Positions 5,924-21,262 of a DNA stretch of 25,572 nucleotides are shown here, one piece after another (the stretch's first letter is position 1; each line of letters starts with the position of its first letter). The stretch is from an uncultured Zetaproteobacteria bacterium (GTDB lineage: Bacteria > Pseudomonadota > Zetaproteobacteria > Mariprofundales > S012-25). The DNA lies in assembly GCA_964614395.1 (NCBI GenBank), contig CAZTLD010000001.1:1-25572 (forward strand), in the 5' to 3' direction. The position numbers and the translations under genes were made by a program. The notes below the pieces were generated by a model. It was given only the letters and a program-made list of their open reading frames with translations. It was not told the origin of the DNA and ran no database searches.

Positions 5924-6862
5924 ATGATCTCAACCCTTACCGCGATGTTCATCCCGATGCTGATCGGGATCGGGCTGCGCTGGGCGCTGGGACGCGCGCA
6001 GGCTGAGCTGGAGCGCGGAGCGCTCGCCCGCATGGTCTACCGCGTGTTCCTGCCCGCGCTGGTGCTCGACCGATTATGGACAGGCGAGCTTTCCTCGGCC
6101 CATGCGTACCTTCCGCTGATTTCGGCGTTGTGCGTACTGACAAGCCTCGTGCTTGCGGCGTGGATTTTTGCCTCGCGCTTCTGGCCGCGCGTCCGCATTC
6201 GGCTTTCCCGCCCCACGCAAGGGGCGCTGATCCTCGCCGCCAGCTTCGGCAACTTCACCTATCTGGGGCTTCCGGTGCTCGTGCACAGCTTCGGCGATCC
6301 CGCCGCAACGATCGCCATCGCCTTCGATCTCATGGCTTCCACGCCGCTGCTGCTCACCCTGGGGCTTTGGATCGCCGCTGCTCATGGACGCGCGCCGGCT
6401 CGCGAAAGGCAAGGGCTTCGCGAGCTTGTGCGCTCCCCGCCTCTCTGGGCGCTCTTTGCGGGTCTTGCGCTGCACTTCGGCGAGGTGCCGCACCCGAAAG
6501 CGGTGGGGCTTGCGCTTTCCGTGCTGGCTGGCGCGGTATCCCCGCTGATGCTCGTGGCCGTCGGCATGGCGCTTTCGTGGCGGGGGCTTACGCGCGCCGA
6601 CTGGCTGCCGCTTGCCGTCGTCGTTTGCATCCAGCTTGTCTGGATGCCAGCCGTGGCATGGCTGGCGAGCCTCTGGCTTCCGATCCCGGAAACGTGGCGC
6701 GGGCCGATCGTCGTGGAGGCTGCGATGCCCACGATGATCCTGGGACTCGCCATCTGCGACCGCTTCAAGCTCAACAGCGCGATCTACGCCGAGGCCGTGA
6801 CGCTCACCACGATCATCGCGCTTGCCGCGATCCCCGCCTGGGTTGCATTCGCGCAAGGCTAG
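5924..6862 (+). CDS. AEC (auxin efflux carrier-like) family membrane transporter
   Basis: About 10 hydrophobic helices with FLPAL, SFGNFTYLGLPV, P..WAL..G and EAAMPT motifs. Start taken at ATG 5924 because the upstream part of the ORF is antisense to clc. Confidence 0.82.
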   Translation: MISTLTAMFIPMLIGIGLRWALGRAQAELERGALARMVYRVFLPALVLDRLWTGELSSAHAYLPLISALCVLTSLVLAAWIFASRFWPRVRIRLSRPTQGALILAASFGNFTYLGLPVLVHSFGDPAATIAIAFDLMASTPLLLTLGLWIAAAHGRAPARERQGLRELVRSPPLWALFAGLALHFGEVPHPKAVGLALSVLAGAVSPLMLVAVGMALSWRGLTRADWLPLAVVVCIQLVWMPAVAWLASLWLPIPETWRGPIVVEAAMPTMILGLAICDRFKLNSAIYAEAVTLTTIIALAAIPAWVAFAQG

Positions 6863-7891: not shown

Positions 7892-9057
7892 AACGCCTGC
7901 ATCGTGCCGAGATACGCGCGCCACTTGCGGATGCTCACGCCATAAGCAATATCGAAGCGAATCGTGCCGCGCACAAGCCAGCGCAGCGTCCAGCGCACGC
8001 CTGCGCCCACCCCCCAGTGCACGCGCATCTTCCCCTGCCAGCCCACAAGCGCCGCATCCACAAAGGGCACGCCCTGCACATTTTCGTGCCCTCGCCACAA
8101 AAAGCGTCCTTCGAGGCTGGCCAGCGCATAGCTCGTAGCCGGCATCTCGCCAGGAAAGTAACCCCGCAGCCCGTTGCGGTGGCCGATATCCCAGCTTCCC
8201 AACGCCGCCCGATCGCCTTGGATCGCGCCTCCCTCAAGCCGCCAGGCCACCGTATCCCCCACCGCATTCAGCAACTGATAGCGCGCATAGCCGCCGGAAA
8301 GGTAGAGCCCGTAGTTCGTCCACCAAGTGGACGCCCACGCCCGCCAACCTCGATGCCAGTCCAAGTGCTCGTCGATCACCTCATCGCGCCATTCAAGCTG
8401 CGGGCCGAGCAGCCGGAATCCGTTGGCGTTCCACTGCGTGCGCCATCCGAGCGCGAAGCGGGCGCCCAGCTCCGGCGTGGGGCCAAGCGTCCGCTCGGCG
8501 GTGAGCGACCATCCTCGGCCTGCGGGATCTTTCCAGCCCTGAAGCTTCGCCGACCAATCCCCGCCCCCAATCCGGCGCATCCGATAGCTGGCGGACAACG
8601 ACTGCTCGCGCGTAAGCCGCGAGAAATTGCGCCCCGCATAGCGGCGCAGCTCCAAGCGCAGCGCATCGCCGCGCCCCCAGGCATTGTAGTCCTCAAGCAC
8701 CAACCCTAGATAGCTTTCGCCGTTGTCTTTGCGCGTGGCCGTGGGCACAAGCCACAGCGGCCAGCGATCCCGCGCGTACACGCGCACGACACCTGCCGCA
8801 TCCGGCGGCTCCACCCGCACCTCGCTGAACAAACCCGTGGCCATCAGCCGCCGGCGCGTCTCTTCCTGCCATTCCGGTTGCCAGGCATCGCCCGGCGCGA
8901 ACGGAAGCTCCCGCTTCACCATGGCGGCCTGCGTGTAGCGCAGGCCGAGCACTTCCACCTGCGCGATCCGCCCTTCGGCAGCCGCCGCCAGACAGGCTGC
9001 GCCTACGAGCAGCGCGGCCGCCAGGGGCCATCTTCGGTGATGATCTCGGTGATCCAT
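7888..9057 (-). CDS. Omp85-superfamily (BamA/TamA-like) outer-membrane protein with a single POTRA domain
   Basis: Signal peptide ([20 protein letters not shown]), POTRA ([18 protein letters not shown]....[12 protein letters not shown]), amphipathic beta-strands, loop-6 LRGY motif and C-terminal Phe. Confidence 0.78.
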
Positions 9058-10022
9058 GCGTAGGGCGTCACATCAAACGCAGGATTGCTTGCCGGCGCAT
9101 CGCAAAGCACGCGCACCCGCGCGGGCGCGCCGGATGCGTCCACGCCGTCGGCGCAGATGATCTCTTCGGGCGCGCGCTCCTCGATCGGAATGGCCTCGCC
9201 CGTGGGCGTCTTCGCATCCAGCGTCGTCGTCGGCGCAGCGACGAAAAACGGCACCCCGTAGGCGCGAGCAAGCGCTGCAAGCATCAGTGTGCCGATTTTG
9301 TTGGCCACATCACCGTTGGCCGCGATGCGATCAGCGCCGACCACGACCGCATCCACCTCACCTCGCTGCATCCGAAAAGCGCTTGCGCTGTCCACCTGAA
9401 TGCAGTGGCGGACGCCCTCCTCGGCAAGTTCCCATGCGGTGAGCCGCCCGCCCTGCCACCGTGGCCGCGTTTCGTTCACCCACACGAACGGCTGTTCGCC
9501 TGCCCGATGCAGCGCATAGACGCCAGCCAGCGCCGTGCCCCAATCCACCGCGGCGAGCCATCCCGTGTTGCAATGGGTGAGAATCCTCCGCCTGCCGCGC
9601 GCAAGCCGCGCCGCCAACTGCTCCCCCAAGCGGCGGTGGCGCGCCACCTCAGCCCTTGCCCACGCCACCGCGGCCTCCACCGCATCCTCCGCCCGCGCAA
9701 AGTGGGGGCTTTGCGCCTGCATGAACGCCACCGCATGCATCAGATTCACCGCGGTGGGCCTGGCTGCGGCAAAGCGCCGGCACCAGCCCTCCCAATCGTC
9801 GCGCGCATGCATCCACGCAAGCGCCAGGCCCAGCGCCGCGGCTGCGCCGATCGTCGGCGCTCCGCGCACCTCCATCCGTTGAATCGCGCGCACGACCCTT
9901 TCTGGATCGCGCGTGCGCCGCACCGCCCAACGAAACGGGAGCTCGGTTTGATCAATCCACGCCGCGCACTGGGCTTCCGCATCCCAATAGACGGCCCAGT
10001 AATCGCGCCCGCGGACTCGCAT
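9003..10022 (-). CDS. mtnA: S-methyl-5-thioribose-1-phosphate isomerase
   Basis: DQTELP, MEVRGAPTIG, RPTAVNL, THCNTG, ETRPRWQGGRLT, GADRIAANGDVANKIGT and NPAFDVTP. Confidence 0.93.
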   Translation of the reverse strand: MRVRGRDYWAVYWDAEAQCAAWIDQTELPFRWAVRRTRDPERVVRAIQRMEVRGAPTIGAAAALGLALAWMHARDDWEGWCRRFAAARPTAVNLMHAVAFMQAQSPHFARAEDAVEAAVAWARAEVARHRRLGEQLAARLARGRRRILTHCNTGWLAAVDWGTALAGVYALHRAGEQPFVWVNETRPRWQGGRLTAWELAEEGVRHCIQVDSASAFRMQRGEVDAVVVGADRIAANGDVANKIGTLMLAALARAYGVPFFVAAPTTTLDAKTPTGEAIPIEERAPEEIICADGVDASGAPARVRVLCDAPASNPAFDVTPYAWITEIITEDGPWRPRCS

Positions 10023-10847
10023 CTAGACGAGCTTTTCCAACAGCGGATCGAGCTCTTCCGGACGCCGGTAGCGGATCACGAGCTCCCCTTCGCCGGATTG
10101 GCGCTGGCGGATGCGCACCGGAAGGCCGAGCGCATAGCTGAGCCGCTCCTCAAGCGCGACGATGTCCGGATCACGAAGGGAAGCGCGCGTTTTTTTCTTC
10201 TGCCGGCGGGCGAAGGCCTCGATCTTGCGCGCGCTCCATTGCTCGCGCGCAGCGCGCGTGGCGGCTTCCACCGCCACCTCTTCGTCCAGCCCCACGAGCG
10301 CCCGCGCTTGCCCTGCGGAAAGTTCTCCTCGCTCCACCATCGCCTGCACGGGCGCGGGGAGCTGCAACAGACGCAAGGTGTTCGTGATCTGCGCCCGCGA
10401 CACGCCCACGCGCCTCGCGATCTCCTCATGCGTCAGGCCGAACTCGTCGGCCAGGCGCTGGTAGGCCTTCGCGGCCTCGATCGGCGAAAGGTCGCGCCGC
10501 TGGAGGTTTTCCACGATCGCAAGCTGCAGCGCCTGCGCATCGGAAACCTCGCGCACCACGGCCGGGATCTCGGCAAGCCCCGCGCGCTGGGCCGCGCGCC
10601 AGCGCCGCTCGCCGGCGACGAGCTGATAGCGCCCCCCGTGCGGCCGCACGAGCACCGGCGAAAGCACCCCATCCTGCCGAATCGACGCCGCCAGCTTCTC
10701 GATCTCCGCTTCGTCGAATATCTCACGCGGCTGATAGGGGTTGGGGTCAATCAGGCCGATCGGGATCATGCGCATCCCTTCCCGCGCGCCTGCCGCCTCC
10801 CCGAGCAACGCATCCAGGCCTCGCCCTAGCCGTCGCTTTTGCTTCAT
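10023..10847 (-). CDS. parB: Chromosome partitioning CTPase ParB (Spo0J)
   Basis: LGRGLDALL ParA-interaction motif, NPYQPR, GERRWRAA, ENLQRRDL and HTH (HEEIARRVGVSRAQITNTLRLL). GGAGG SD. ATGA overlap with the parA stop. Confidence 0.95.
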   Translation of the reverse strand: MKQKRRLGRGLDALLGEAAGAREGMRMIPIGLIDPNPYQPREIFDEAEIEKLAASIRQDGVLSPVLVRPHGGRYQLVAGERRWRAAQRAGLAEIPAVVREVSDAQALQLAIVENLQRRDLSPIEAAKAYQRLADEFGLTHEEIARRVGVSRAQITNTLRLLQLPAPVQAMVERGELSAGQARALVGLDEEVAVEAATRAAREQWSARKIEAFARRQKKKTRASLRDPDIVALEERLSYALGLPVRIRQRQSGEGELVIRYRRPEELDPLLEKLV

Positions 10848-11626
10848 CTCCGCCTCCCTTCGCAGCGCACCAGCACTTCGTGCGCGGCTTGCAGATAGGC
10901 CTGCGTGCCCTGCGCGCGCAGGTCGTAGTCCAGCGCAGGCTTGCCAAAGCTGGGCGCCTCGGAAAGCCGCACGTTGCGCGGAATGATCGTGGAAAACACC
11001 TGCGCGCCGAAATACCCGCGCACCTCCTCCTCCACCTGCCGGCTCAGATTGCTGCGCCGGTCCACCATCGTCAGCAAAATCCCCAGCATCCTCAGCGCCG
11101 GATTGAACTGCGCCCGCACCCGCCGAATCGTGTCCATCAACTGCGCCAGCCCCTCCATCGCGAAAAACTCGCACTGCAGCGGCACCAATACCTGATCGGC
11201 GGCCGCCAGCGCATTGATCGTGAGCAGATTCAGCGAGGGCGGGCAGTCGATCCAGACATAGTCAAAGCGCCGCTTCTCAACCAGTGGCGCAAGCGCTCGC
11301 CTAAGCCTTTGCTCCCGCCCCGCCTCGCTTACGAGCTCCACCGCTGCACCGGCCAGATCCATCGTCGCCGGCACGACGAAAAGCCCCTCGAACGCCGTGG
11401 GCACACAGACTTCATCAAGAGAAACCTCGCCCAGCAAAAGCTCGTAGCTCCCCGCCTGGACCTCGTGCTTGTCGATTCCCAGCCCCGTCGTCGCATTGCC
11501 TTGCGGATCCAGATCCACGACCAACACCTCGCGGTCGAGCGCCGCAAGGCTTGCCGCGAGGTTGATGCAGCTTGTCGTTTTGCCCACCCCGCCCTTCTGA
11601 TTGGCCACGGCGATGCAATGTTTCAC
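10844..11626 (-). CDS. parA: Chromosome partitioning ATPase ParA (Soj); start most likely GTG 11626 (alternative GTG 11635)
   Basis: ANQKGGVGKTT deviant Walker A, DLDPQGNAT, IDCPPSL, PLQCEFFAMEG and IPRNVRLSEAPSFG. The GAGGGG SD is correctly spaced only for 11626. Confidence 0.95.
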   Translation of the reverse strand: MKHCIAVANQKGGVGKTTSCINLAASLAALDREVLVVDLDPQGNATTGLGIDKHEVQAGSYELLLGEVSLDEVCVPTAFEGLFVVPATMDLAGAAVELVSEAGREQRLRRALAPLVEKRRFDYVWIDCPPSLNLLTINALAAADQVLVPLQCEFFAMEGLAQLMDTIRRVRAQFNPALRMLGILLTMVDRRSNLSRQVEEEVRGYFGAQVFSTIIPRNVRLSEAPSFGKPALDYDLRAQGTQAYLQAAHEVLVRCEGRRR

Positions 11627-11634
11627 GTGAAACA
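11619..11634. promoter_or_regulatory. parS centromere site (ParB-binding palindrome)
   Basis: Perfect TGTTTCACGTGAAACA, matching the canonical 16-bp parS, at the 5' end of parA. Confidence 0.93.
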
Positions 11635-12189
11635 CCCCTCTTTACGCCACGCGCGCATGCGCAAGCCCGCTTCGCAGCAATCCGCCACCAACGTCCAGCC
11701 AGGCTGAGGCTGCGGATCCGCGTTGCGCGGCACGATCCATGCCGCCACCCCGCCTGCCCGCAGATGCTTGGCCGCCCATGCCAGCATCTTCGCCTCCGGG
11801 GCGACCGCGCGCGCAACGAACGCATCCGCGCCCAGCGGGTCCAGCGCCTCAATGTCTGCGGCGCGCACTTCGGCGGGCAAATCCAATACCCGGACTAGGC
11901 GCTTCAAAAACGCCGCCCGCTTTTGGCGACGCTCGACGAACACGCCGCGCAACCCCGGAAAGCGAAGCAGCAGCGGCACGCCGGGCACGCCGTTGCCTGA
12001 GCCGACATCGACGAGCAGGCCCTCTTCCGGCAACCACACCCCAAGCCGCAACGACGGATACACCAGCGCTTCCAGAAACGCCTCCGCGTTGCGCGCGCCG
12101 GTGAGATTCAGCACGCGATTGCCGCGCATCACCTCCTCGGCGTAGCGCATCAGCCGCGCCTCAAGCCCCTCATCCGCGCGGCTGCTCAT
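11623..12189 (-). CDS. rsmG: 16S rRNA m7G527 methyltransferase RsmG (GidB), short and divergent
   Basis: LNLTG, LVDVGSGNGVPG SAM-binding motif, ERRQKRAAFL and xRA motif. Canonical position between mnmG and parA. Confidence 0.85.
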   Translation of the reverse strand: MSSRADEGLEARLMRYAEEVMRGNRVLNLTGARNAEAFLEALVYPSLRLGVWLPEEGLLVDVGSGNGVPGVPLLLRFPGLRGVFVERRQKRAAFLKRLVRVLDLPAEVRAADIEALDPLGADAFVARAVAPEAKMLAWAAKHLRAGGVAAWIVPRNADPQPQPGWTLVADCCEAGLRMRAWRKEGCFT

Positions 12190-14056
12190 AGGCCCGCAAA
12201 TGCAACATCAGCGCGGCGATCGCGGCCGGCGTGACGCCGGGGATGCGCGAGGCCTGCCCGATCGTGCGCGGCCGGTACTGGATGAGACGCTCGCGACACT
12301 CGTGGCTGAGGCCCGGCACGCGCGCAAAGTCAAAGCCCTCGGGGATGCGCATCGCCTCAAGCTTCCTCAGCCGCGCCACCTCTTCCTCTTCCTTCTCGAG
12401 ATACCCACTGTAGCGCAGCTCGGCCAAAAGCGTGTGCAACGCGCGCGGCGAGCTCGGAGCAAGCTCCCCGAGCAAGGCCTTGGCCGCCTCCACCCCCACC
12501 TCCGGGCGGTGCAGATAGGACACAAGCTTTTGCGCCGTCTCCGGCACCGGCAATCCCAGTTCCTCGAGCTTGGCCCGCCAATGCGCATTGGGGGCCACCG
12601 TGGTCTGGCGCGCGGCGGCAAGCGCAGCTTCCAGCGCCTTTTGATCGGCGCGCCGAGCGGCCAGGCGATCCTCGTCGACGAGCTTCAGCCGCTCGGCCAC
12701 CTCGAGAAAGCGCAGCCATGCGTTGTCTTCCCGCAGCCGCAAGCGGAACTCGGCGCGCGCCGTCAGCATCCGATACGGCTCCAAAACGCCCTTCGTGGTG
12801 AGGTCGTCAATCAACACTCCGATGTAGCCCTCGTCCCGCCGCGGCGTCCACATCTCACCATCCAGCGCCCGGGCTGCGGCGTTGATGCCGGCGATCAGCC
12901 CTTGGGCCGCCGCCTCTTCGTAGCCGGTCGTGCCGTTGATCTGGCCTGCGTGGAACAAACCCCGCACTTTTTTCGTCTCCAGCGTGGGAAAAAGCTCCGT
13001 GGGATCGACGAAGGCGTATTCAATCGCATAGCCCGGCCGGATCAGCCGAACCTCCTCCAACCCCTCGATCGAGCGCAGAAACGCCCACTGCACATCCAAC
13101 GGCAACGAAGTGGAAAGCCCATTGGGATAGACCTCGGCGTGATCGCGCCCCTCCGGCTCGAGAAAGATTTGATGCGAAGGCTTGTCGGCAAAGCGCACCA
13201 CCTTGTCCTCGATGCTCGGGCAATAGCGAGGACCGCGCGCTTGAATGCGCCCGCCATACATCGCCGAGCGGTGCAGGTTTTCGCGGATGATGCGGTGGGT
13301 CTCCGGATTCGTGCGCGCGATGAAACAATCGATCTGATCCGCGACGACCTTGGTATGCAGCTCGGAAAACGGGCGCGCGCCACGATCGCCGGGGTGGCGC
13401 TCGAGCTTTTCCCAGCGAATCGTGCGCCCGTCGAGCCTCGGCGGGGTGCCGGTCTTCAATCGCCCGAGGCGAAAGTGCGCGCGGTAAAAGCGCGCCACCA
13501 AGGCCGTGCTCGCCGGCTCTCCCGCGCGCCCCGCGGAAACCTGCTGCTCGCCGAGGTGGATCACGCCATCAAGGAAGGTGCCGGTGGTCACGACCACCGC
13601 CCGGCAGCGGTGCTCAACGCCGAGCGTGTCCACCACCCCCCGCACACATCCGTCCTCGACGAGAATCTCGGCTGCCTCTCCCTGATACAGCGAAAGGTTC
13701 GGGATGGCATCGAGCAACGCGCGCACCGCGATTTGATAGTGCCGGCGATCGCATTGCGCCCGCGTGGCGCGCACGGCGGGCCCCTTGCGCTCGTTGAGCA
13801 CCCGGTAGTGCAGCGCAGCCCGATCGGCCGCGATCGGCATCAGTCCGCCCAGCGCGTCGATCTCGCGCACCAAGTGGCCCTTGCCGACCCCGCCGATCGC
13901 CGGGTTGCAGGACATCTTCGCGATCGTATCGAGATTTTGCGTGATCAGGCGCACGCGCGCGCCGCGGCGCGCGGCGGCTGCCGCCGCCTCCACGCCCGCA
14001 TGCCCGCCGCCAATCACGACGACATCGACATCTTCCGGATGTTTCACGTGAAACAT
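12170..14056 (-). CDS. mnmG: tRNA uridine-5-carboxymethylaminomethyl(34) synthesis enzyme MnmG (GidA); alternative start GTG 14047
   Basis: VIGGGHAGVEAA, MSCNPAIGG, RLKTGTPPRL, GPRYCPSIEDK, AGQINGTTGYEEAAAQG and YRMLTARAE. Confidence 0.96.
   Translation of the reverse strand: MFHVKHPEDVDVVVIGGGHAGVEAAAAAARRGARVRLITQNLDTIAKMSCNPAIGGVGKGHLVREIDALGGLMPIAADRAALHYRVLNERKGPAVRATRAQCDRRHYQIAVRALLDAIPNLSLYQGEAAEILVEDGCVRGVVDTLGVEHRCRAVVVTTGTFLDGVIHLGEQQVSAGRAGEPASTALVARFYRAHFRLGRLKTGTPPRLDGRTIRWEKLERHPGDRGARPFSELHTKVVADQIDCFIARTNPETHRIIRENLHRSAMYGGRIQARGPRYCPSIEDKVVRFADKPSHQIFLEPEGRDHAEVYPNGLSTSLPLDVQWAFLRSIEGLEEVRLIRPGYAIEYAFVDPTELFPTLETKKVRGLFHAGQINGTTGYEEAAAQGLIAGINAAARALDGEMWTPRRDEGYIGVLIDDLTTKGVLEPYRMLTARAEFRLRLREDNAWLRFLEVAERLKLVDEDRLAARRADQKALEAALAAARQTTVAPNAHWRAKLEELGLPVPETAQKLVSYLHRPEVGVEAAKALLGELAPSSPRALHTLLAELRYSGYLEKEEEEVARLRKLEAMRIPEGFDFARVPGLSHECRERLIQYRPRTIGQASRIPGVTPAAIAALMLHLRAYEQPRG
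14040..14055. promoter_or_regulatory. parS centromere site (ParB-binding palindrome)
   Basis: Perfect TGTTTCACGTGAAACA, extending to an 18-bp palindrome ATGTTTCACGTGAAACAT (14039-14056) over the mnmG start. Confidence 0.93.
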
Positions 14057-14062
14057 ACACTC

Positions 14063-14068
14063 ATTCTA
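14063..14068 (-). promoter_or_regulatory. Putative sigma70 -10 element for the mnmG-rsmG-parA-parB operon
   Basis: TAGAAT on the minus strand, 6 nt upstream of ATG 14056 and downstream of the prk terminator. No convincing -35 element. Confidence 0.5.
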
Positions 14069-14117
14069 ACGAGCGCCGGATAAGGATAAAGGCGATGGGC
14101 GCTTGAGAGATCTCTGG

Positions 14118-14145
14118 AAAAATCAGGCCGGGCATTTGCCCGGCC
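14118..14145 (-). terminator. Intrinsic terminator downstream of prk
   Basis: Minus strand reads GGCCGGGC-AAAT-GCCCGGCC followed by TGATTTTT, 13 nt after the prk stop. Confidence 0.72.
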
Positions 14146-14158
14146 CAATGTGCAACGC

Positions 14159-15034
14159 CTACGCCTCGCCGCGCAGACGCTTGGCTTCGTCCACGAGCCT
14201 GCGGATGATCGGGGTGAGGATCAGCTCCATCGCCAGCACCATCTTGCCCGCCGGCACGACGATCGTGTTGCGGCGAGACATGAACGACTGGTGCAGCATC
14301 GCGAGCAGATACGGAAAGTCCACATCCCACTTTTTCGGATCCCGGAAGCGGATCACGAGCAGCGACTCGTCCGGCGTGGGCACGTCGCGGGCGATGAACG
14401 GGTTGGACGTGTCCACGAGCGGCACGCGCTGGAAGTTGATATCGGTGATCGAAAACTGCGGCGTGATGTAGTGCACATAGTCGTGCATGCGCAGCAGGAT
14501 GTTTTCCACCACCGCTTCGGTGGAATAGCCGCGCAGGCTCGTGTCGCGGTGGATCTTCTGGATCCACTCCAGATTCACCACCGGCGTGATGCCGATCGCC
14601 AAATCCACGTAGGGCCGCGCCTCCTCGATGCATCCGTGCAGGCCCTCATAAACGAGCAAATCCGTGCCCTCGCCGATCTCCTCCCACTCGGTGAAGCGCC
14701 CCGGCTCCACGCCGTAGCGCTTGGCCTCCTCTTCGTCGTGCACATAGTGCCGCGCCATGCCGCGGCCGGTTTCGCCATAGGACTTGAACAACTCCACGAT
14801 CTTGTCGAAAAGGTTCGCTTCCGGCGAAAAGTGCGAAAGGCGCTTGCCCTGGGCTGCGTATTCCTTGGCCTTCTCGCGGAACTCGTAGCGATCGTACTTG
14901 TGGAAGCAATCGCCCTCGACAAACGCCGCGCGCAGCTTCTCGCGGCGGAAGATGTGCTCCAGCGCCACCTTCGCGGTGCTCGTGCCCGCGCCGGAAGAGC
15001 CCGTGATCGCCACGACAGGATACTTGGCCGACAT
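14159..15034 (-). CDS. prk: Phosphoribulokinase, proteobacterial (CbbP/PrkB) type
   Basis: VAITGSSGAGTST, EGDCFHKYDR, SHFSPEANLF, YEGLHG, NLEWIQKIHRD, RGYSTEAV, INFQRVPLVDTSNPFIAR and SFMSRRNTIVVPAGKM. GAGGGAGG SD 6 nt before ATG 15034. Confidence 0.95.
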   Translation of the reverse strand: MSAKYPVVAITGSSGAGTSTAKVALEHIFRREKLRAAFVEGDCFHKYDRYEFREKAKEYAAQGKRLSHFSPEANLFDKIVELFKSYGETGRGMARHYVHDEEEAKRYGVEPGRFTEWEEIGEGTDLLVYEGLHGCIEEARPYVDLAIGITPVVNLEWIQKIHRDTSLRGYSTEAVVENILLRMHDYVHYITPQFSITDINFQRVPLVDTSNPFIARDVPTPDESLLVIRFRDPKKWDVDFPYLLAMLHQSFMSRRNTIVVPAGKMVLAMELILTPIIRRLVDEAKRLRGEA

Positions 15035-15097
15035 CCACCACCTCCCTCTTTCGTTGTGCCTCGCCACGCTAGCAAGCAGCGCTTGCCCGTGCCAGTT

Positions 15098-16435
15098 TCA
15101 CTTTCCGATGCAAAACGACGAAAACACCCGATCCAGAATCGCTTCCACATCCCCCACGCCGAGGATTTCGGCCAATGCCGCGTAGGCGCGGCGAAAGTGC
15201 GCGGCGGCAAGATCCATCGTCTCGGGCCGATCGGCCAAGGTCTTGCCTTCCGCGAGTGCTGCACGCGCCCGCAGCAAAAGCTCGCGGTGGCGCGCGCGCG
15301 TGATCCACACATCCTCGCCCTCGGCCTGCGCTTCGCCGCACGCCTCGGCCAAGCGCGCCAAAAGCGCATCCAGCCCGAAGCCCGTTTTTGCGCTTACAAG
15401 CAGCCAGCGCCGATCGAAGGCGGCTTGCGCCTGCGGCGTAAGCAGATCCGCTTTGTTCGCCACCCAAAGCGTGGCCTCCACGCCTTGCGGCGGGACGGGA
15501 TCGGTGGCCTCGGCGACCCAAAGCACGACATCCGCGCGCTGGGCCGCCTTCAGCGCTCGCCGAATGCCTTCTTGCTCAATCGGATCGGAGGGGGTTTCGC
15601 GGATCCCTGCCGTGTCCAGCACCCGCACCGGCACGCCGCGCACGGCAAACTGCGCCTCCACCGCATCGCGCGTCGTGCCCGGGATGCTGCTGACGATCGC
15701 GCGCTCTTCGCCGGCCAGACGGTTGAGAAGGCTGGATTTGCCGACATTCGGCGGGCCCAAGATCACCAATGTAAGCCCCCGGAAGAGGCGCTCGCCGAAA
15801 TCGGCCGTGCGAAGCGCCCGGTCGATGTCCTGGATGATCGCCTCTGCGCGCGCGGCGAAATCCAGCCCTTCGGGGATGTCTTCTTCGGGGAAATCGAGCA
15901 GCGCTTCCAGATGGGCGACGAGATCGGTGATCGCATCCATCAGCGCCTGAATGCGCTCGCCGAGCTTCCCCGCCAGCTGCTTCTGCGCCTGCTTGGCTGC
16001 GCGCAGCGTGGCCGCCTCAATCGCGGCCGCCACCGCCTCGGCCTGCGTCAGATCGAGCTTGCCGTGCTCGACGGCGCGGCGCGTGAACTCGCCAGGGCCT
16101 GCGGGCCGCGCGCCCAGCGCGTAGATGCGCTCCAGCACCCGCTCGATGATCACGGGGCTGCCGTGCAAATGGAGCTCTACGACATCCTCACCGGTGAAGC
16201 TGTGCGGTGCGGGAAACCAGAGCACAAGCGCTTGATCGAGCACCTCGCCGTCATCGTCCAGGATCTTGCGAAGCGAGGCCACGCGCGGCTGGGGAAGCGG
16301 ACGCTGGGTGAGCCCCTGCAAGATCGCCGCCGCGTCCTTTCCTGAGATGCGCACCACGGCCACCCCCGAACGCCCCCAGGGGGTGGCCAATGCCGCAATG
16401 GTCAGGCCACGTGCATCCGCTTGTAGACGAGCCAC
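15098..16435 (-). CDS. mnmE: tRNA modification GTPase MnmE (TrmE); start uncertain (GTG 16435 or CTG 16405)
   Basis: TIAALATPWGRSGVAVVRISG, FTGEDVVELHLHG, GEFTRRA, GPPNVGKSSLLN, GTTRD, DTAGIR and C-terminal FCIGK. Confidence 0.94.
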   Translation of the reverse strand: MARLQADARGLTIAALATPWGRSGVAVVRISGKDAAAILQGLTQRPLPQPRVASLRKILDDDGEVLDQALVLWFPAPHSFTGEDVVELHLHGSPVIIERVLERIYALGARPAGPGEFTRRAVEHGKLDLTQAEAVAAAIEAATLRAAKQAQKQLAGKLGERIQALMDAITDLVAHLEALLDFPEEDIPEGLDFAARAEAIIQDIDRALRTADFGERLFRGLTLVILGPPNVGKSSLLNRLAGEERAIVSSIPGTTRDAVEAQFAVRGVPVRVLDTAGIRETPSDPIEQEGIRRALKAAQRADVVLWVAEATDPVPPQGVEATLWVANKADLLTPQAQAAFDRRWLLVSAKTGFGLDALLARLAEACGEAQAEGEDVWITRARHRELLLRARAALAEGKTLADRPETMDLAAAHFRRAYAALAEILGVGDVEAILDRVFSSFCIGK

Positions 16436-17976
16436 TGTTGCAAAATGGAAAGCAGATTGTTCGTGAACCAATACAACACGAGACCCGAGGGGAAGAACAG
16501 GAACATCAGCGTGAATGCGACCGGCATGAACTGCATCAGCCTTGCCTGCATCGGATCCGAAGGCTGCGGGTTGAGCCGCTGCTGGATGTACATGCTCAGC
16601 CCCATCAACACCGGCAGCACGAAATACGGATCCGGCGCGGAAAGATCCTTGATCCAGCCGACGAACGGCGCATGGCGCATCTCGATCGAAACGAGCAGCA
16701 CCTTATACAGCGCGAAGAACACTGGAATCTGAATGAAGATCGGCAGGCAGCCCGAAACCGGGTTCACCTTGTGCTTCCGATACAGCTTCATCAATTCCTC
16801 GGCCATGCGCTGGCGGTCGTCGCCGTAAAGCTCGCGCAGCCGCTCGATCTCGGGCTGGATCTTGCGCATCGCCGCCATCGACAGATACGAGCGGTGCGTG
16901 GGATAGAAAAAGAGAATCTTGATCAACACGACGAGGATGATGATGTCCAGCCCGTAGTTCGGGACAAACCGGTGCACCCAGAGCAAAAACTTGTGCAACG
17001 GGATCGCGATGAACGCAAACCAGCCGAAGTCCACGCTGCGCTCAAGCTCTACCCCTAAAGACTCCAGAATCGGCGTGGACTTCGGGCCCAGATAGACCGC
17101 CGTTTGGTAGATGCGCGCCCCGTCGGCCGAGGCCTTCGGCTGCGCGAAGAAGCCCGCCTGATAGCTTGCGCCGTCGGTCTTGAAGAAGACCTCCACCTGC
17201 TTGCTCGGATCGAGAATGAACGAGGCAAGGAAATACCGGTTCATGACCCCGATCCAGCCGCCCTTCGTGGTCTCGGTGATTGCCCGGCGCTCGTCGAGCT
17301 CCTCGTAGTCCACCTGCCGCAGCTTCCCGTTCAAAAACGCCACCGGCCCCACATGTTCATAGAAGGTATCTTTCTTCTTGTCCGGATTGCGCTCGACGAT
17401 CTGGTAGTAAACGCTGGGCGAGGCGATGCCCCGCACCCGATCCGTCATCTGCAACAGATAGCCCGAAGCCTTCTTCGTCAGGCGCAGCTCCCGCGTCCAC
17501 GCCCCACCACCCTCAAGCGGCGCTTGCAACACGATCCGATCAGGGCTTTGCTCCACCGGCGCAAACGCTCCCGCGCGCCGATGCCTCAAAATGCCAGCGT
17601 TGAGGTAAAGCCCGTGGCCGGTCGGGGTCAGATCCAGATAGGCGACGCCCGGAGAGTTTGGATCCAGCGTCTGATGGTACTGCTTCATCACCGCCTTCAC
17701 GATCCAGCCGCGCTCGTCCACAAGGATTCGCACGCGCGCATTTTCCAATGCGAAGACCCGCTTCGGCATCCGCCAACTGGGCGCACGCAGCTGCTGATCC
17801 TCGGGTCTTGGCGTCGGCTTTTCGGTGGGCTGGGCATGAGAAGCCTCCCCCGATGGTTCGACCTCCTCGGAAGAAGAGGGCGGCGTGGGCTTGGGCGGGG
17901 GGAAAATCGCCTGCCAGATGAAGATGATCGCAATCGAAATCGCAACGGCGAGCAAAAGGTTGCGCGTCTGTTCCAT
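16402..17976 (-). CDS. yidC: Membrane protein insertase YidC (with periplasmic domain)
   Basis: N-terminal TM, DFGWFAFIA, NYGLDIIILVVLIK, SMAAMRKIQP, NPVSGCLP, FIQIPVFFALY, DLSAPDPYFVLP and PSGLVLYW. Confidence 0.96.
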   Translation of the reverse strand: MEQTRNLLLAVAISIAIIFIWQAIFPPPKPTPPSSSEEVEPSGEASHAQPTEKPTPRPEDQQLRAPSWRMPKRVFALENARVRILVDERGWIVKAVMKQYHQTLDPNSPGVAYLDLTPTGHGLYLNAGILRHRRAGAFAPVEQSPDRIVLQAPLEGGGAWTRELRLTKKASGYLLQMTDRVRGIASPSVYYQIVERNPDKKKDTFYEHVGPVAFLNGKLRQVDYEELDERRAITETTKGGWIGVMNRYFLASFILDPSKQVEVFFKTDGASYQAGFFAQPKASADGARIYQTAVYLGPKSTPILESLGVELERSVDFGWFAFIAIPLHKFLLWVHRFVPNYGLDIIILVVLIKILFFYPTHRSYLSMAAMRKIQPEIERLRELYGDDRQRMAEELMKLYRKHKVNPVSGCLPIFIQIPVFFALYKVLLVSIEMRHAPFVGWIKDLSAPDPYFVLPVLMGLSMYIQQRLNPQPSDPMQARLMQFMPVAFTLMFLFFPSGLVLYWFTNNLLSILQQWLVYKRMHVA

Positions 17977-17978
17977 CT

Positions 17979-18200
17979 CTACTTCTCCCTTTCCGGCACC
18001 GGATCGTAGCCCCAGCCGCCTCCCGGCCGGCAGCGGGCAAGCCTTCGCAACGCAAGCGCGCCGCCCTTGAGCACTCCAAAGCGCGCAATCGCTTCATAAG
18101 CGTACTGCGAACAGCTGGGCACAAAACGGCAGCGCGCCGGCAGCCACGGCGAAATCCCCCACTGATAGCCGCGCACGAGCTTCAACACCAGCCGCTTCAT
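17979..18200 (-). CDS. yidD: Membrane protein insertion efficiency factor YidD
   Basis: [40 protein letters not shown] 18200 overlaps the rnpA stop (ATGA). Confidence 0.93.
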
Positions 18201-18547
18201 GAGCCCATCGCGCACCGTCTTCTTACCTCATCCAGCATCGCACCCAGCTCTTCGGCCAGCCCCTTGAGCCGCTTGTCCGGAAGCTTTTTCGCTATCACCA
18301 GCACATCCACCGGCACGTCCCGGATCGGATGCCTGCGGAACACCTCGCGCGCGATGCGCCGGAAGCGGTTGCGACGCGTCGCCTTGCCCAGCCTTTTGGA
18401 CACCGAAAGCCCCAGCCTTGCCCAGCCAAGCGCGTTGCGCTTCCAGACCACGGCGGCGAGCTTCCCCTCGATGCGCTGGCCACCCCGCAGCCGCCGGAAC
18501 TCCGCCGGCCGGCGAAGGCGCGCCTCTTTCGGAAAACGCTCGTTCAG
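18197..18547 (-). CDS. rnpA: Ribonuclease P protein component; probable non-canonical CTG start
   Basis: [15 protein letters not shown]-terminus, [21 protein letters not shown] (RNR motif) and DVLVIAK. Canonical position between rpmH and yidD. Confidence 0.88.
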
Positions 18548-18687
18548 ACGGTAAGACGCTTGCGCCCTTTCGCGCGCCGACGCTTGAGCACCTTGCGCCC
18601 GCCTTTCGTCTTCATCCGCGCCCGAAACCCGTGCTTGCGCGCGCGCTTGATCCGGCTCGGGCGGTAGGTCAAATGCTCGATCGCCAT
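18544..18687 (-). CDS. rpmH: 50S ribosomal protein L34
   Basis: [48 protein letters not shown] upstream of ATG 18687. Confidence 0.95.
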
Positions 18688-18719
18688 CGCCAAAACCCCT
18701 TTGCGGAAAATGGGCGGCA

Positions 18720-18747
18720 AGCATAGCCCGTTTGCGCTTGCATTCAA
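18720..18747 (-). promoter_or_regulatory. Putative sigma70 promoter for the rpmH operon
   Basis: Minus strand TTGAAT-N16-TATGCT upstream of rpmH. Confidence 0.55.
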
Positions 18748-18765
18748 GAAGCTTGCAGCTATCTT
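18738..18765 (+). promoter_or_regulatory. Putative sigma70 promoter for the rpsF operon
   Basis: Plus strand TTGCAT-N16-TATCTT. The predicted start (~18772) coincides with the 5' end of the structured leader. Confidence 0.55.
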
Positions 18766-18770
18766 TCGCC

Positions 18771-18844
18771 GCCATCCTTGCTCCGCGCCAAGAGCGCGGG
18801 GCGCTGCGCATCGCACGCGGATGCGCGCACCGAAAGGAGGTCGG
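18771..18844 (+). ncRNA. rpsF leader (S6:S18-binding autoregulatory RNA) candidate
   Basis: TCCTT (18775-79) can pair with the SD AAGGA (18834-38). It encloses hairpin GCTCCGCGC-CAAGA-GCGCGGGGC and a second hairpin GCGCATC/GATGCGC, with an unpaired CCG before the SD. Confidence 0.6.
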
Positions 18845-19204
18845 ATGTATTACGAAAATGTGTTTATCGTGCACCCAGACCTTTCCACGGCCAATGCCGA
18901 AAAGGTCGTCGATGAGCTGGTCGCGCTGGTGGAAAAGCACGGCGGGCGCGTGGTCAAGCGCGAGTCGTGGGGCGTGCGCCCGCTGGCCTATCGCATCGCC
19001 CACCGCAAGCGCGGGCACTATTTCCTGATCGTGGTGGACGGCGAGCCGGATGTGCAACGGGAGCTGGAGCGCGCGTTCCGGCTTTCCGATCATGTGATCC
19101 GGTGGCTGTGCGTGCGCGTGGACGAGGTGTCCGACAAGCCCTCGCCGCTCGCCAAGCGCACAGCCGCCGAACCCGAGGGCGGCGCTGACGCGGAAGCGGC
19201 CTGA
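18845..19204 (+). CDS. rpsF: 30S ribosomal protein S6
   Basis: [53 protein letters not shown]. Confidence 0.96.
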
Positions 19205-19232
19205 GGCCTTCGCCGAAGTTCGCGCCCGAGGG

Positions 19233-19535
19233 GTGTTGCAGCATCTGCGCACGCGCTGGTTGCCGGATGGAAGCTTTGCCGTGATCGGCGAGCTATGGGT
19301 GCCGCGGCCGGCGCTCGGGGCGCCGCGCGTGGAAGCGCCCGATGAGCAGCCACTGCCAATCCGCGCATGGAAAGAGATCGCCGAGAAGCTTGCCAAGCTG
19401 GAAGGGTCATGGGTCGAGATCCAGGGCGTGTTGCGACGGCGTTTTTTCCGGCGGGACGGCATGCCGTTTTGGGGGCAGCTTGAAGTGTGGATCACGGATG
19501 TCAAAACCAACGACGAGGGGTATGGCGATGACTGA
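19233..19535 (+). CDS. Short OB-fold ssDNA-binding protein (PriB/SSB-like); true start may lie upstream
   Basis: Occupies the priB/ssb slot between rpsF and rps[22 protein letters not shown] resembles the OB-fold core of SSB/PriB. No DDIPF tail. Confidence 0.6.
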
Positions 19536-19845
19536 GCAGGAAAAGACCACCGAAGCCACGGAAGCGCAGCCGGAGAAGGCCGCGGAGGCTTCCGAGGCGA
19601 AAAAAGAGGAAAAGAAGCAGCGGCGTTATCCGCGCCGGCGCAAGTTCTGCCGCTTTTGCGCGGAGAAGTTCGAGCCGGACTACAAAGATCCGGAATCGCT
19701 CAAGCCGTTCATCAACGCGCGCTACAAGATCATCTCCCGCCGCATCACCGGGACTTGCGCCAAGCATCAACGCAGGCTGACGAAGGCGGTCAAGCGGGCG
19801 CGGATCCTCGCCCTTTTGCCGTTCACGACGATGCACAAGGGCTGA
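19528..19845 (+). CDS. rpsR: 30S ribosomal protein S18 (zinc-binding C+ form) with acidic N-terminal extension
   Basis: [53 protein letters not shown] 7 nt before ATG 19528. Confidence 0.96.
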
Positions 19846-19857
19846 TCGGAGTCGCGC

Positions 19858-20832
19858 GTGGGCGGCGATGCAACCGGCATGCCTCCGGCGGCGCAGGCGC
19901 TGCTCACGCGCAAGCTCCCCTGCGCAGCGCTGATGCTGGTGATGTTCACCGCGCCTGCGTGGGCAAGCCTGCTTGCACCGATTCCAGTTTTGGGATTGCT
20001 GGCCGTTTCGGCGGCGTTGGCTGCGCATCTTCTGGTGCCGATGGTGGCGGCGATCGTCGCGATGGGGGGAGGGCTTGGTTTTGCCTTGCCTGCCGTGGGG
20101 CTGATGGGCGCAGGTGTGTGGGCGGCCAGCGGTTTTGCCTGGCCGGTGGGGATCAGCGCCTTTCTGCTTTATGGGGTGGCGCCGGCCATCGCCGGCTGGC
20201 TGCTGCTCAGCCGCGTGCGCGGGCTTGAGCGCGCAGCGGCTGCCTTGCTTGCGTTCACGGCCGGCGTGGTGTTCGTCGGCTGGGCGTGGTACGCAGATGC
20301 GCAAGGGATCGCTCCCGCAGAGCTCGGCGAGAAGCTGCTGCGCGAGATCGTGCAGGGTCGTGAAGCCTCGGAGATCCAGAAGCTTGTGCACGCGTTGGCT
20401 CAGGGGATGCCCGGTTGGATCACCGCGGGGATTTGGGTGGCTTGGTTGGGCAATCTGGTGCTTGCCCGCAGCGTGATGCAGCGCTGGGGATTGTTTGCGG
20501 GCGACACCCGCCCCATTTACATGCTTTCCTTCCGGCCGCGGCTGGGACTTGGTTTTCTTGGCTTGGCGACAGCCGCGCTGCTCGGGGAAGGCTCCGTGCG
20601 CTTTTGGGCGGAAAGCGGGGCCATCGCCTTGGCCGCGCCCATCGCCGCGCAAGGCACCTTTGCCGTGCACGCCTGGCTTGCCGCGCGCGAAATGACGCTT
20701 GCGATCGCCACCCTTTATTTGATGCTTGCGCTGTGGTCTGCGATGATTCTGCCGCTGTTGATCGTGGGGCTTGCCGATTTGTGGCTGGATTTCAGGAAGC
20801 AAGGAGGACGCAATGCAGGTGATTCTGCTTGA
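19858..20832 (+). CDS. DUF2232/YybS-like integral membrane protein
   Basis: About 9-10 TM segments, with PIAAQG and GLADLWLDFRK matching the family C-terminus. Position between rpsR and rplI. GGAG SD before GTG 19858. Confidence 0.72.
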   Translation: MGGDATGMPPAAQALLTRKLPCAALMLVMFTAPAWASLLAPIPVLGLLAVSAALAAHLLVPMVAAIVAMGGGLGFALPAVGLMGAGVWAASGFAWPVGISAFLLYGVAPAIAGWLLLSRVRGLERAAAALLAFTAGVVFVGWAWYADAQGIAPAELGEKLLREIVQGREASEIQKLVHALAQGMPGWITAGIWVAWLGNLVLARSVMQRWGLFAGDTRPIYMLSFRPRLGLGFLGLATAALLGEGSVRFWAESGAIALAAPIAAQGTFAVHAWLAAREMTLAIATLYLMLALWSAMILPLLIVGLADLWLDFRKQGGRNAGDSA

Positions 20833-21262
20833 ACGGATCGAGGGGCTGGGCAACGTCGGCGATGTCGTCGATGTGCGCCCGGGGTATGCGCGCAACTACC
20901 TGATCCCGCAGAAGAAGGCGCTGCTTGCCACCAGCGCGAACCGCAAGCTGTTCGAGCGGCGGCGCGCGATGCTGGAAAAGGCGCAGGCCGAACGGCTCGA
21001 ACAGGCCAAGGCGCAGGCGGAAAAGATGCAGGCGCTGGAGCTCGTCGTGCACCGCCCCACAAGCGACGGCGAGCACCTTTACGGCTCGGTGGGTGTGGCA
21101 GACCTCGCCGCGTTGCTTGCCGAGCACGGCTTTGAGGTGCGTCGGGCGGACATCATCTTGGATGCGCCGATCAAGACGGTCGGCACGCACGCGTTCCGCG
21201 TGCGCCTGCATCCGGACGTGGTCGCTGAGCTTTCCGTGCGCGTGGAAACGGAGGGGCATTGA
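20813..21262 (+). CDS. rplI: 50S ribosomal protein L9
   Basis: MQVILLERIEGLGNVGDVVDVRPGYARNYLIP, LYGSV, IKTVG and LHPDV. AAGGAGG SD. Confidence 0.96.
   Translation: MQVILLERIEGLGNVGDVVDVRPGYARNYLIPQKKALLATSANRKLFERRRAMLEKAQAERLEQAKAQAEKMQALELVVHRPTSDGEHLYGSVGVADLAALLAEHGFEVRRADIILDAPIKTVGTHAFRVRLHPDVVAELSVRVETEGH

What the first reader, a model, noticed from the sequence alone, without database searches (positions are those of the whole stretch)
14118..15097. Calvin-cycle phosphoribulokinase inserted inside the conserved mnmE-mnmG origin cluster
Seen: an intact proteobacterial-type prk lies between mnmE and mnmG on the same strand. It has its own strong SD, lies 63 nt after the mnmE stop with no evident terminator in between, and is followed by an intrinsic terminator. 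No cbbL/cbbM, cbbR, fbp or tkt is present in the window. Known: mnmE and mnmG are directly adjacent in many bacteria, and cbbP usually sits in CbbR-controlled cbb operons. Inference: prk may be the last gene of an rpmH-rnpA-yidD-yidC-mnmE-prk transcript. That would tie RuBP regeneration to growth-rate-controlled translation genes and to origin-proximal gene dosage, as might suit an obligate autotroph.
Basis: partly seen in the sequence, partly recalled or inferred. Interest (0 to 1): 0.75.

Follow-up and report, generated by a model that had tools for sequence, protein, structure and literature searches.

The report
Stand-alone Calvin-cycle kinase gene beside mnmG
An intact phosphoribulokinase gene does sit between the tRNA-modification genes mnmE and mnmG, but this placement is an old trait shared by almost all iron-oxidising Zetaproteobacteria, and the gene looks like a self-contained unit rather than a special coupling of carbon fixation to translation genes.

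Summary
It has a GAGGGAGG ribosome-binding site and is followed by a strong hairpin plus U-tract terminator (14146-14118). The chain rpmH-rnpA-yidD-yidC-mnmE lies upstream and mnmG-rsmG-parA-parB downstream.

The window comes from a 1.38-Mb hot-spring Zetaproteobacteria MAG. The insertion is not special to this genome. In 50 distinct Zetaproteobacteria prk loci, mnmG lies directly downstream in 44 of 47 assessable and mnmE directly upstream in 39 of 49. None of 56 non-Zeta prk loci has either neighbour. Zeta PRKs form one clade (100/99).

Relatives carry a conserved TTGAAW-N16-18-CATAAT promoter before prk and a terminator after it. The cassette also occurs behind other genes (acyltransferase, cbbR, dnaN, atpC). 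Here only a weak promoter candidate (CTGGCA-N18-TAGCGT) is seen and no terminator follows mnmE, so read-through is possible but untested; no RNA run was listed.

Form II RuBisCO, a cbbR ortholog, rpe and tkt lie on other contigs. Unlinked cbbP in obligate autotrophs is already published. An unchecked note of this scan (e1-4256139) reports a similar cassette in another genome.

Verdict: a real, ordinary, clade-wide arrangement of modest interest.

The parts
18544..18687 (-). rpmH (ribosomal protein L34), first gene of the co-directional chain
   Evidence: PF00468 at 75.6 bits. The start is placed at the Met 47 codons before the stop, read from the ORF printed.
18197..18547 (-). rnpA (RNase P protein); start codon uncertain
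   Evidence: PF00825 at 67.3 bits on the C-terminal part of ORF 18197-19510.
17979..18215 (-). yidD
   Evidence: TIGR00278 at 79.7 bits, cut-off 40.
16402..17976 (-). yidC membrane insertase
   Evidence: PF02096 at 210 bits and PF14849 at 111 bits.
15098..16471 (-). mnmE (tRNA U34 modification GTPase); the true start is probably nearer 16405
   Evidence: NF003661 at 462 bits, cut-off 380, with the match starting at residue 24.
15066..15095 (-). Candidate weak prk promoter: -35 CTGGCA (15095-15090), 18-nt spacer, -10 TAGCGT (15071-15066)
   Evidence: This is the best sigma-70-like pair in the 200 nt upstream (score 6.5 of 12). Its -10 ends 31 nt before the ATG. That register matches G001 (32), L007 CATAAT (33), L011 TACCAT (32) and L017 TATCAT (30). 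It is inferred only and falls below the threshold of the consensus scanner.
15041..15048 (-). Shine-Dalgarno sequence GAGGGAGG, 6 nt before the prk ATG
   Evidence: Read directly from the sequence.
14159..15034 (-). prk / cbbP, proteobacterial-type phosphoribulokinase
   Evidence: NF011997 at 449.7 bits, cut-off 362. PF00485 at 205 bits. 1A7J at E 1.9e-105 with P-loop and catalytic residues kept. It is the only PF00485 match in the genome.
14118..14146 (-). Intrinsic terminator of prk: GGGCCGGGC-AAAU-GCCCGGCCU followed by GAUUUUU
   Evidence: The 61-nt test stretch folds at -25 kcal/mol, z -2.49. An equivalent hairpin plus T-run lies 15-35 nt after the prk stop in nearly all Zetaproteobacteria loci.
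12170..14056 (-). mnmG, whose start codon is overlapped by a perfect parS (TGTTTCACGTGAAACA, 14055-14040)
   Evidence: TIGR00136 at 792 bits. The parS sits at +1 of the mnmG ATG in 44 of the 45 printed Zetaproteobacteria loci that hold mnmG (one, L004, duplicates L033); the printed offset is +1 in 40 and -2 in 4, and L129 was not scanned.
11623..12189 (-). rsmG
   Evidence: PF02527 at 89.7 bits.
10844..11635 (-). parA
   Evidence: PF13614 at 204.8 bits.

Best explanation
The gene is the organism's single Calvin-cycle phosphoribulokinase. It was inherited vertically from the common ancestor of the Zetaproteobacteria. In that ancestor a self-contained prk cassette (promoter, prk, intrinsic terminator) became lodged at the junction between the rpmH-rnpA-yidD-yidC-mnmE unit and the parS-mnmG-rsmG-parA-parB unit near the origin. 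It makes ribulose 1,5-bisphosphate for a form II RuBisCO encoded elsewhere next to cbbR. Transcription ends at the hairpin at 14146-14118, and mnmG starts a new unit. In this high-G+C lineage the upstream spacer has shrunk to 63 nt. prk is probably fed by a weak promoter of its own (CTGGCA-N18-TAGCGT) and also by unterminated read-through from mnmE. Shown: gene identity, clade-wide synteny, monophyly, the terminator, and the promoter motif in relatives. Inferred: the promoter in this genome, read-through, and the absence of CbbR control.
For: - Identity: NF011997 at 449.7 bits against a cut-off of 362. 1A7J at E 1.9e-105 with GSSGAGTS and the D42/H45/R49/E131/K165/R168/D169/R173 equivalents kept. 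It is the only PRK-family gene in the genome.
- Pathway partners: a form II RuBisCO fragment on C102, matching NF010002 positions 314-456. The cbbR ortholog sits at the end of C11, and its orthologs are divergent from cbbM in four relatives. rpe and tkt lie on other contigs.
- Synteny: mnmG is directly downstream in 44 of 47 loci and mnmE directly upstream in 39 of 49 of the 50 distinct Zeta loci. None of 56 non-Zeta prk loci shows either neighbour. PRK is present in 127 of 133 Zeta genomes and in 64 of 64 high-quality ones.
- Single origin: Zeta PRKs form one clade at 100/99, and the own genome pairs with its family mate.
- Autonomy: CATAAT or CAGAAT lies within 200 nt upstream in 42 of 50 regions, against a shuffled mean of 4.7 and maximum of 11. 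It is usually preceded by TTGAAW at 16-18 nt. The motif is kept behind dnaN, a divergent guaB and atpC.
- Terminators follow prk in nearly all loci, and strong ones are rarely found after mnmE.
- Own terminator: -25 kcal/mol, z -2.49.
- mnmE and mnmG are contiguous in 7 of 15 sampled non-Zeta Pseudomonadota, so 'insertion' is a fair description.
Against: No transcript data exist for this organism; none was listed. The promoter candidate here matches only 7 of 12 consensus positions, and the consensus scanner found no promoter at all in 11500-21500. The upstream spacers of this genome and of its nearest relative share no alignable sequence beyond the ribosome-binding site. A promoter at about -60 to -30 cannot therefore be homologous in both unless it was rebuilt. 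That leaves room for pure read-through expression in this family. Ancestral-state inference rests on a PRK gene tree with a midpoint root, not on a species tree.
Confidence: 0.75

Rival explanations
1. In this genome prk has no promoter of its own and is simply the last cistron of an rpmH-rnpA-yidD-yidC-mnmE-prk transcript. RuBP regeneration would then be tied to growth-rate-controlled translation genes and to origin-proximal dosage, as an adaptation of an obligate autotroph.
For: The spacer is only 63 nt with no terminator-like structure. No consensus promoter was detected. The upstream genes overlap or abut one another, and a strong terminator follows prk. In the nearest relative prk also sits 65-72 nt behind a co-directional gene, with unrelated spacer sequence. 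That pattern fits expression by read-through in this family.
Against: Most relatives have a conserved promoter before prk, 73-245 nt after mnmE. The cassette works behind at least five other kinds of neighbour, so linkage to mnmE is not what is conserved. A position-conserved weak -35/-10 pair exists here. For the dosage argument, I know from memory that cultured Zetaproteobacteria grow slowly, so multifork replication, and hence origin dosage, should matter little.
Confidence: 0.25
2. prk is transcribed from a CbbR-dependent promoter in the 63-nt spacer and belongs to the cbb regulon despite its location.
For: The genome encodes a CbbR ortholog whose best family match is NF045990. In the third Zeta family (f3: G003, G007) the only cbbR ortholog lies directly upstream of prk. 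In the nearest non-Zeta PRK homologs (Arenicellales, Acidiferrobacteraceae, Thioglobus) cbbR is divergent from prk. An A+T-rich word (TTGATTTTA..ACATTAT) occurs both in the cbbR-cbbM spacer and in prk leaders of some Mariprofundaceae.
Against: By eye I saw no A+T-rich dyad of the LysR T-N11-A type in 15035-15097. The shared word is short and A+T-rich, and it is absent from this genome. In Acidithiobacillus ferrooxidans CbbR did not bind the cbbP operon promoter (PMC2942843).
Confidence: 0.12
3. The PRK has a non-Calvin role, like the PrkB homologs of Escherichia and Vibrionaceae, which lack RuBisCO.
For: The same NCBIfam family and close homologs (64-65% identity) occur in Enterovibrio, Grimontia and Vibrio.
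Against: A form II RuBisCO, cbbR, rpe and tkt are present. All 64 high-quality Zetaproteobacteria genomes keep the gene, and published Zetaproteobacteria genome analyses report CBB-pathway genes (PMC5649172); that the class is autotrophic is from memory.
Confidence: 0.03

Closest known systems
Rhodobacter sphaeroides phosphoribulokinase (PDB 1A7J), the octameric proteobacterial PRK
   Same: It aligns over residues 1-285 of 291 at E 1.9e-105. The P-loop and the equivalents of D42, H45, R49, E131, K165, R168, D169, R173 and R187 are kept, as are R221, R234 and R257. The roles of these residues are from my memory of published mutagenesis.
   Different: The R186 equivalent is Leu, and there are short length differences after residues 53 and 140. 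The gene context is unrelated: as I recall, the R. sphaeroides gene lies in a CbbR-controlled cbb operon.
Stand-alone cbbP of obligate chemolithoautotrophs (cbb4 operon of Acidithiobacillus ferrooxidans, Thiomicrospira crunogena, Nitrosomonas; Esparza et al. 2010, PMC2942843)
   Same: prk is unlinked from RuBisCO and from the other cbb genes in an obligate autotroph. RuBisCO and cbbR lie elsewhere.
   Different: In A. ferrooxidans cbbP is co-transcribed with metK-sahA-metF. Here it is a single gene wedged between mnmE and mnmG. That position is fixed across a whole class.
Mariprofundus ferrooxydans PV-1 locus (NZ_DS022294.1, 958278-971132; locus L046)
   Same: The order is the same: rnpA-yidC-mnmE-prk-mnmG-rsmG-parA...mtnA. 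PRK is 77% identical, a terminator follows prk, and parS lies on the mnmG start.
   Different: PV-1 has a 160-nt spacer with a near-consensus TTGAAT-N18-CATAAT promoter and a leader of about 90 nt. It also has a 625-nt prk-mnmG gap. The window has 63 nt and 102 nt.
The rpmH-rnpA-yidC-mnmE | mnmG-rsmG-parA-parB cluster common in Pseudomonadota
   Same: Gene order and strand are the same. mnmE lies directly upstream of mnmG in 7 of 15 sampled non-Zeta genomes.
   Different: None of those genomes has prk in the junction.

Membership tests
Phosphoribulokinase, proteobacterial type (NCBIfam NF011997; Pfam PF00485) | Whole-protein score above the curated equivalog cut-off | tested here: met
   449.7 bits against a cut-off of 362, covering profile positions 1-288 of 290. 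PF00485 scores 205 bits.
Phosphoribulokinase, proteobacterial type (NCBIfam NF011997; Pfam PF00485) | Walker A P-loop and the catalytic and Ru5P-binding residues of R. sphaeroides PRK (D42, H45, R49, E131, K165, R168, D169, R173) | tested here: met
   All are identical in the alignment to 1A7J. Their roles are recalled from published mutagenesis and were not tested here.
Phosphoribulokinase, proteobacterial type (NCBIfam NF011997; Pfam PF00485) | Ru5P kinase activity and NADH/AMP allostery | not testable with these tools
   An enzyme assay is needed. The equivalents of R221, R234 and R257 are kept.
Calvin-Benson-Bassham cycle gene set | RuBisCO present in the same genome | tested here: met
   A form II RuBisCO C-terminal fragment at C102:3-446 matches NF010002 positions 314-456 at 259 bits. 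It is cut by the contig end. rpe and tkt are present.
Stand-alone cbbP of obligate autotrophs (PMC2942843) | No other cbb gene linked to cbbP | tested here: met
   No cbb gene is in the 25.6-kb window. RuBisCO, cbbR, rpe and tkt lie on four other contigs.
rpmH-rnpA-yidD-yidC-mnmE operon (prk as its last cistron) | No terminator between mnmE and prk | tested here: met
   No hairpin plus T-run is found, and the spacer fold has z -0.13.
rpmH-rnpA-yidD-yidC-mnmE operon (prk as its last cistron) | No promoter between mnmE and prk | tested here: inconclusive
   The scanner finds none. However, a weak CTGGCA-N18-TAGCGT pair lies in the register of relatives' promoters.
rpmH-rnpA-yidD-yidC-mnmE operon (prk as its last cistron) | A transcript spanning mnmE and prk | not testable with these tools
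   No RNA run was listed for this sequence.
CbbR regulon | A LysR-type dyad (T-N11-A) upstream of the promoter | tested here: inconclusive
   I saw none by eye in 15035-15097. The own cbbR-cbbM spacer is cut by a contig end, so the site of this genome's CbbR is unknown.

The most novel reading that the evidence does not exclude
The near-invariant junction prk - terminator - parS/mnmG start across the whole class may be held by selection rather than inertia. Under this reading the committed kinase of CO2 fixation sits inside the ParB loading zone next to the origin. Its expression would then be coupled to replication or segregation state, through ParB spreading or transient dosage, and the terminator would shield parS from transcription.
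Probability: 0.06. Interest if true: 0.6.

Novelty: new member of a known kind. Interest (0 to 1): 0.28.

Why it matters
The finding gives a clean synteny marker for Zetaproteobacteria: prk directly upstream of a parS-bearing mnmG start. It adds one more class to the published rule that obligate autotrophs keep cbbP apart from RuBisCO operons. It also corrects the impression that carbon fixation is wired to translation genes in this organism. What is conserved is the prk-mnmG junction and an autonomous promoter-gene-terminator cassette, not co-transcription with mnmE. The practical value is for annotation and for choosing where to map transcription starts in cultured relatives. It opens no long-standing question.

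Tried and rejected
- RNA evidence: two run searches listed only DNA runs from one hot-spring study and no RNA.
- Rfam: no family reaches its gathering score anywhere in the window.
- Consensus promoter scan: 0 sites in 11500-21500 against 1.2 expected, so it is uninformative in this 65% G+C genome. The same scan missed the prk terminator, which folding and my own scan recover.
- Sigma-54 reading of TGGCAC in the spacer: rejected by eye, because the GC of the -12 element is not at the required distance.
- oriC between prk and mnmG: rejected. There is no DnaA-box cluster there in any locus. In PV-1 and G001 the boxes cluster 3.5-4.5 kb upstream of prk, and only three one-mismatch boxes occur in the whole window.
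- Structured RNA leader in the roughly 95-nt prk leaders of Mariprofundaceae: RNAalifold gave no consensus structure on 28 leaders.
- MAFFT alignment of the five short-leader spacers gave only 57% column identity and no anchored blocks. The argument from promoter register therefore rests on ungapped distances.
- Shared 7- and 8-mers between the own cbbR upstream stub and the prk spacer (GCAAGCGC, CAACGAA) were judged compatible with chance, by my rough estimate.
- Recent lateral insertion: rejected by the tree.
- MtnA as a ribose-1,5-bisphosphate isomerase feeding RuBisCO: rejected. TIGR00512 scores 334 bits, over its cut-off, while TIGR00511 scores 174.6 against a cut-off of 314.
- The 625-nt prk-mnmG gap of PV-1 holds no ORF with an obvious identity.

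Full report
**What is in the window**

- On the minus strand the genes run rpmH (18544-18687), rnpA (about 18197-18547), yidD (17979-18215), yidC (16402-17976), mnmE (15098-16471), prk (14159-15034), mnmG (12170-14056), rsmG, parA, parB, mtnA and an Omp85-like gene.
- On the plus strand, diverging from rpmH, lie rpsF-priB (both per scan notes, not scanned here), then rpsR, rplI, dnaB, alr, fxsA and a rhomboid gene.
- The prk product scores 449.7 bits against the phosphoribulokinase equivalog NF011997, cut-off 362.
- It aligns end to end with Rhodobacter sphaeroides PRK (1A7J, E 1.9e-105). The P-loop GSSGAGTS and the equivalents of D42, H45, R49, E131, K165, R168, D169 and R173 are kept.
- The ATG at 15034 is the right start because the alignment begins at residue 1. 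GAGGGAGG lies 6 nt upstream.
- After the prk stop, a 9-bp G+C stem with loop AAAU and a GAUUUUU tail occupies 14146-14118. The 61-nt test stretch folds at -25 kcal/mol, z -2.49.
- The spacer before prk folds no better than shuffles, z -0.13.

**Whose genome it is**

- The window is contig 1 of a 1.38-Mb, 278-contig, 87%-complete MAG. The only run holding it is a hot-spring metagenome.
- The best PRK matches are all Zetaproteobacteria/Mariprofundales. The closest is 'Mariprofundales bacterium S012_25' at 91% identity.
- The genome has about 65% G+C.

**The rest of the pathway**

- A form II RuBisCO C-terminal fragment sits at the start of contig C102, matching NF010002 positions 314-456. Its N-terminal part is not assembled.
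- One of only two LysR genes in the genome lies at the very end of contig C11. Its best family match is CbbR, NF045990.
- Its orthologs are divergent from cbbM in four relatives. The three Mariprofundaceae genomes are shown by coordinates and the nearest relative G001 by reading the spacer. The same layout here is probably broken by the assembly.
- rpe and tkt are on two further contigs.
- prk is the only PRK/uridine-kinase family gene in the genome. A Calvin-cycle role is therefore the straightforward reading.

**How common the arrangement is**

- All 41 closest genomes have one prk.
- Across the class, 127 of 133 genomes have it, including 64 of 64 high-quality ones.
- I scored neighbours on 50 distinct prk loci from two collections. 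mnmG lies directly downstream in 44 of 47 assessable loci and mnmE directly upstream in 39 of 49.
- None of 56 prk loci from other Pseudomonadota has either neighbour.
- In 7 of 15 sampled non-Zeta Pseudomonadota, mnmE abuts mnmG with nothing between. 'Insertion into a conserved junction' is thus a fair description.
- A maximum-likelihood tree of 106 PRKs puts all 50 Zeta sequences on one side of a 100/99 branch. The own sequence pairs with its family mate.
- The lineages that branch first under the midpoint root (L054, then the own family) show mnmE-prk-mnmG, as does most of Mariprofundaceae. The simplest history is one insertion in the ancestor of the class. This is an inference from a gene tree.

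**What is actually conserved**

- The upstream neighbour varies:
  - an acyltransferase gene in the nearest relative G001;
  - the cbbR ortholog in two genera of a third family;
  - dnaA-dnaN in Ghiorsea;
  - a divergent guaB in another MAG;
  - atpD-atpC in one genus, where prk has left mnmG altogether.
- Through all these contexts prk keeps two signals.
- The first signal is upstream. CATAAT or CAGAAT lies within 200 nt upstream in 42 of 50 regions, against a shuffled mean of 4.7 and maximum of 11. It is usually about 95-105 nt before the ATG and preceded by TTGAAW at 16-18 nt. That is a near-consensus sigma-70 promoter.
- The second signal is downstream. A perfect 8-12-bp G+C hairpin with a T-run lies 15-35 nt after the stop in nearly all loci, whereas strong terminators are rarely found after mnmE.
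- prk is therefore best seen as an autonomous cassette that can also receive read-through from whatever lies upstream.
- The mnmG start is itself overlapped by a parS site in 44 of the 45 printed Zeta loci that hold mnmG (one is a duplicate record; one locus, L129, was not scanned). A second parS lies about 2.42-2.46 kb (2.59 kb in one locus) further on in the 20 loci long enough to show it.

**This genome in particular**

- The 63-nt spacer has no CATAAT.
- The best sigma-70-like pair in the 200 nt upstream is CTGGCA (15095-15090), 18 nt, TAGCGT (15071-15066). Only 7 of 12 positions match.
- Its -10 ends 31 nt before the ATG. That is the same register as the best pairs of G001 (32), L007 with a true CATAAT (33), and the two high-G+C genomes L011 (TACCAT, 32) and L017 (TATCAT, 30).
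- I read this as a decayed 'short-leader' version of the family promoter, with moderate confidence.
- Against it, the spacers of this genome and of G001 do not align beyond the ribosome-binding site. Pure read-through expression therefore remains possible in this family.
- I put roughly 55-60% on an own promoter plus read-through and about 25% on read-through alone.
- Nothing here speaks for the adaptive story of growth-rate or dosage coupling.

**Origin proximity**

- No dnaA was found in the MAG and the window has no DnaA-box cluster.
- In two complete relatives prk lies 4-5 kb from the end of the record. In PV-1 and G001, DnaA boxes cluster 3.5-4.5 kb upstream of prk.
- An origin-proximal position is therefore likely and conserved, but it is not shown for this genome.

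**What is known**

- Esparza et al. 2010 (PMC2942843) state that a separate cbbP, unlinked from RuBisCO genes, distinguishes obligate from facultative autotrophs. They also found that CbbR did not bind the cbbP operon promoter in A. ferrooxidans.
- The Ghiorsea paper only notes that cbbM and prk are present (PMC5649172).
- No paper in the library holds both 'phosphoribulokinase' and 'mnmG', and none of the top-ranked hits of the broader term search links prk with gidA or mnmE in Zetaproteobacteria.
- The specific junction therefore seems undescribed, although it is plainly visible in public genomes since PV-1.
- Another first-stage note of this scan (e1-4256139) reports a similar cassette on another genome. 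I did not identify or check that genome.

**Verdict**

This is a real feature, correctly observed. It is ordinary in mechanism and a clade-wide synteny trait rather than a novelty of this organism.

Noticed in passing
window 14040-14055; loci L003-L056: A parS (TGTTTCACGTGAAACA, at most 2 mismatches) starts one base after the A of the mnmG ATG in 44 of the 45 printed Zetaproteobacteria loci that hold mnmG (one is a duplicate record; L129 was not scanned); the printed offset is +1 in 40 and -2 in 4. The MnmG N-terminus MFHVK is therefore encoded by parS. A second parS lies 2419-2457 nt (2586 in one locus) further on, near the rsmG/parA boundary, in the 20 loci long enough to show it.
   Followed up: partly
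L008 2530-3429 and L011 514-1419 (G003, G007): In a third Zetaproteobacteria family the only cbbR ortholog lies directly upstream of prk on the same strand (cbbR-prk-mnmG), not beside cbbM.
   Followed up: partly
L057-L064, L068, L074, L075, L082, L085, L099, L100: In 15 non-Zeta loci among the closest PRK homologs (Arenicellales, Acidiferrobacteraceae, Thioglobus), a cbbR-like gene is divergent from prk and ends about 125-210 nt before it. A second LysR gene often lies behind it.
   Followed up: no
L025 (G022) and L027 (G036): In one genus prk has left the mnmG junction. In L025 it follows atpD-atpC and still carries a TTGTTT-N17-CATAAT promoter; in L027 the upstream gene is unidentified and no CATAAT was found. 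In both, a large membrane-protein gene lies downstream.
   Followed up: partly
L044 (Ghiorsea) 338-6126: The order is dnaA-dnaN-prk-mnmG on one strand, so prk directly follows the replication genes.
   Followed up: no
L115-L117 (cbbR-cbbM spacers) and prk leaders of L009, L042, L043, L047: An A+T-rich word (TTGATTTTA..ACATTAT) occurs both in the cbbR-cbbM intergenic region and just before the prk ribosome-binding site in several Mariprofundaceae. It could be a shared regulator site or chance in A+T-rich DNA.
   Followed up: partly
G000 C102:3-446 and C11:14935-15882: The RuBisCO gene is cut by a contig start, and the cbbR ortholog sits 86 nt from a contig end. The two contigs probably join across the missing 5' part of cbbM.
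   Followed up: partly
window 9003-10022: An mtnA gene (methylthioribose-1-phosphate isomerase, TIGR00512 at 334 bits) lies after parB here. An mtnA homolog lies 870-1090 nt beyond parA, room for one parB-sized gene, in five relatives, including PV-1. It is not a ribose-1,5-bisphosphate isomerase.
   Followed up: yes
L046 6868-7492; L038; G011 C20:335856-338154: The prk-mnmG gap is 625 nt in PV-1, 556 nt in L038 and about 2.3 kb in G011, against 70-200 nt elsewhere. In PV-1 it holds no recognisable ORF or DnaA-box cluster.
   Followed up: partly
window 14159-15034: prk has the highest third-position G+C of the listed window genes (0.87 against 0.79-0.82), although the 14-15 kb bin has the lowest overall G+C (0.613).
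   Followed up: no
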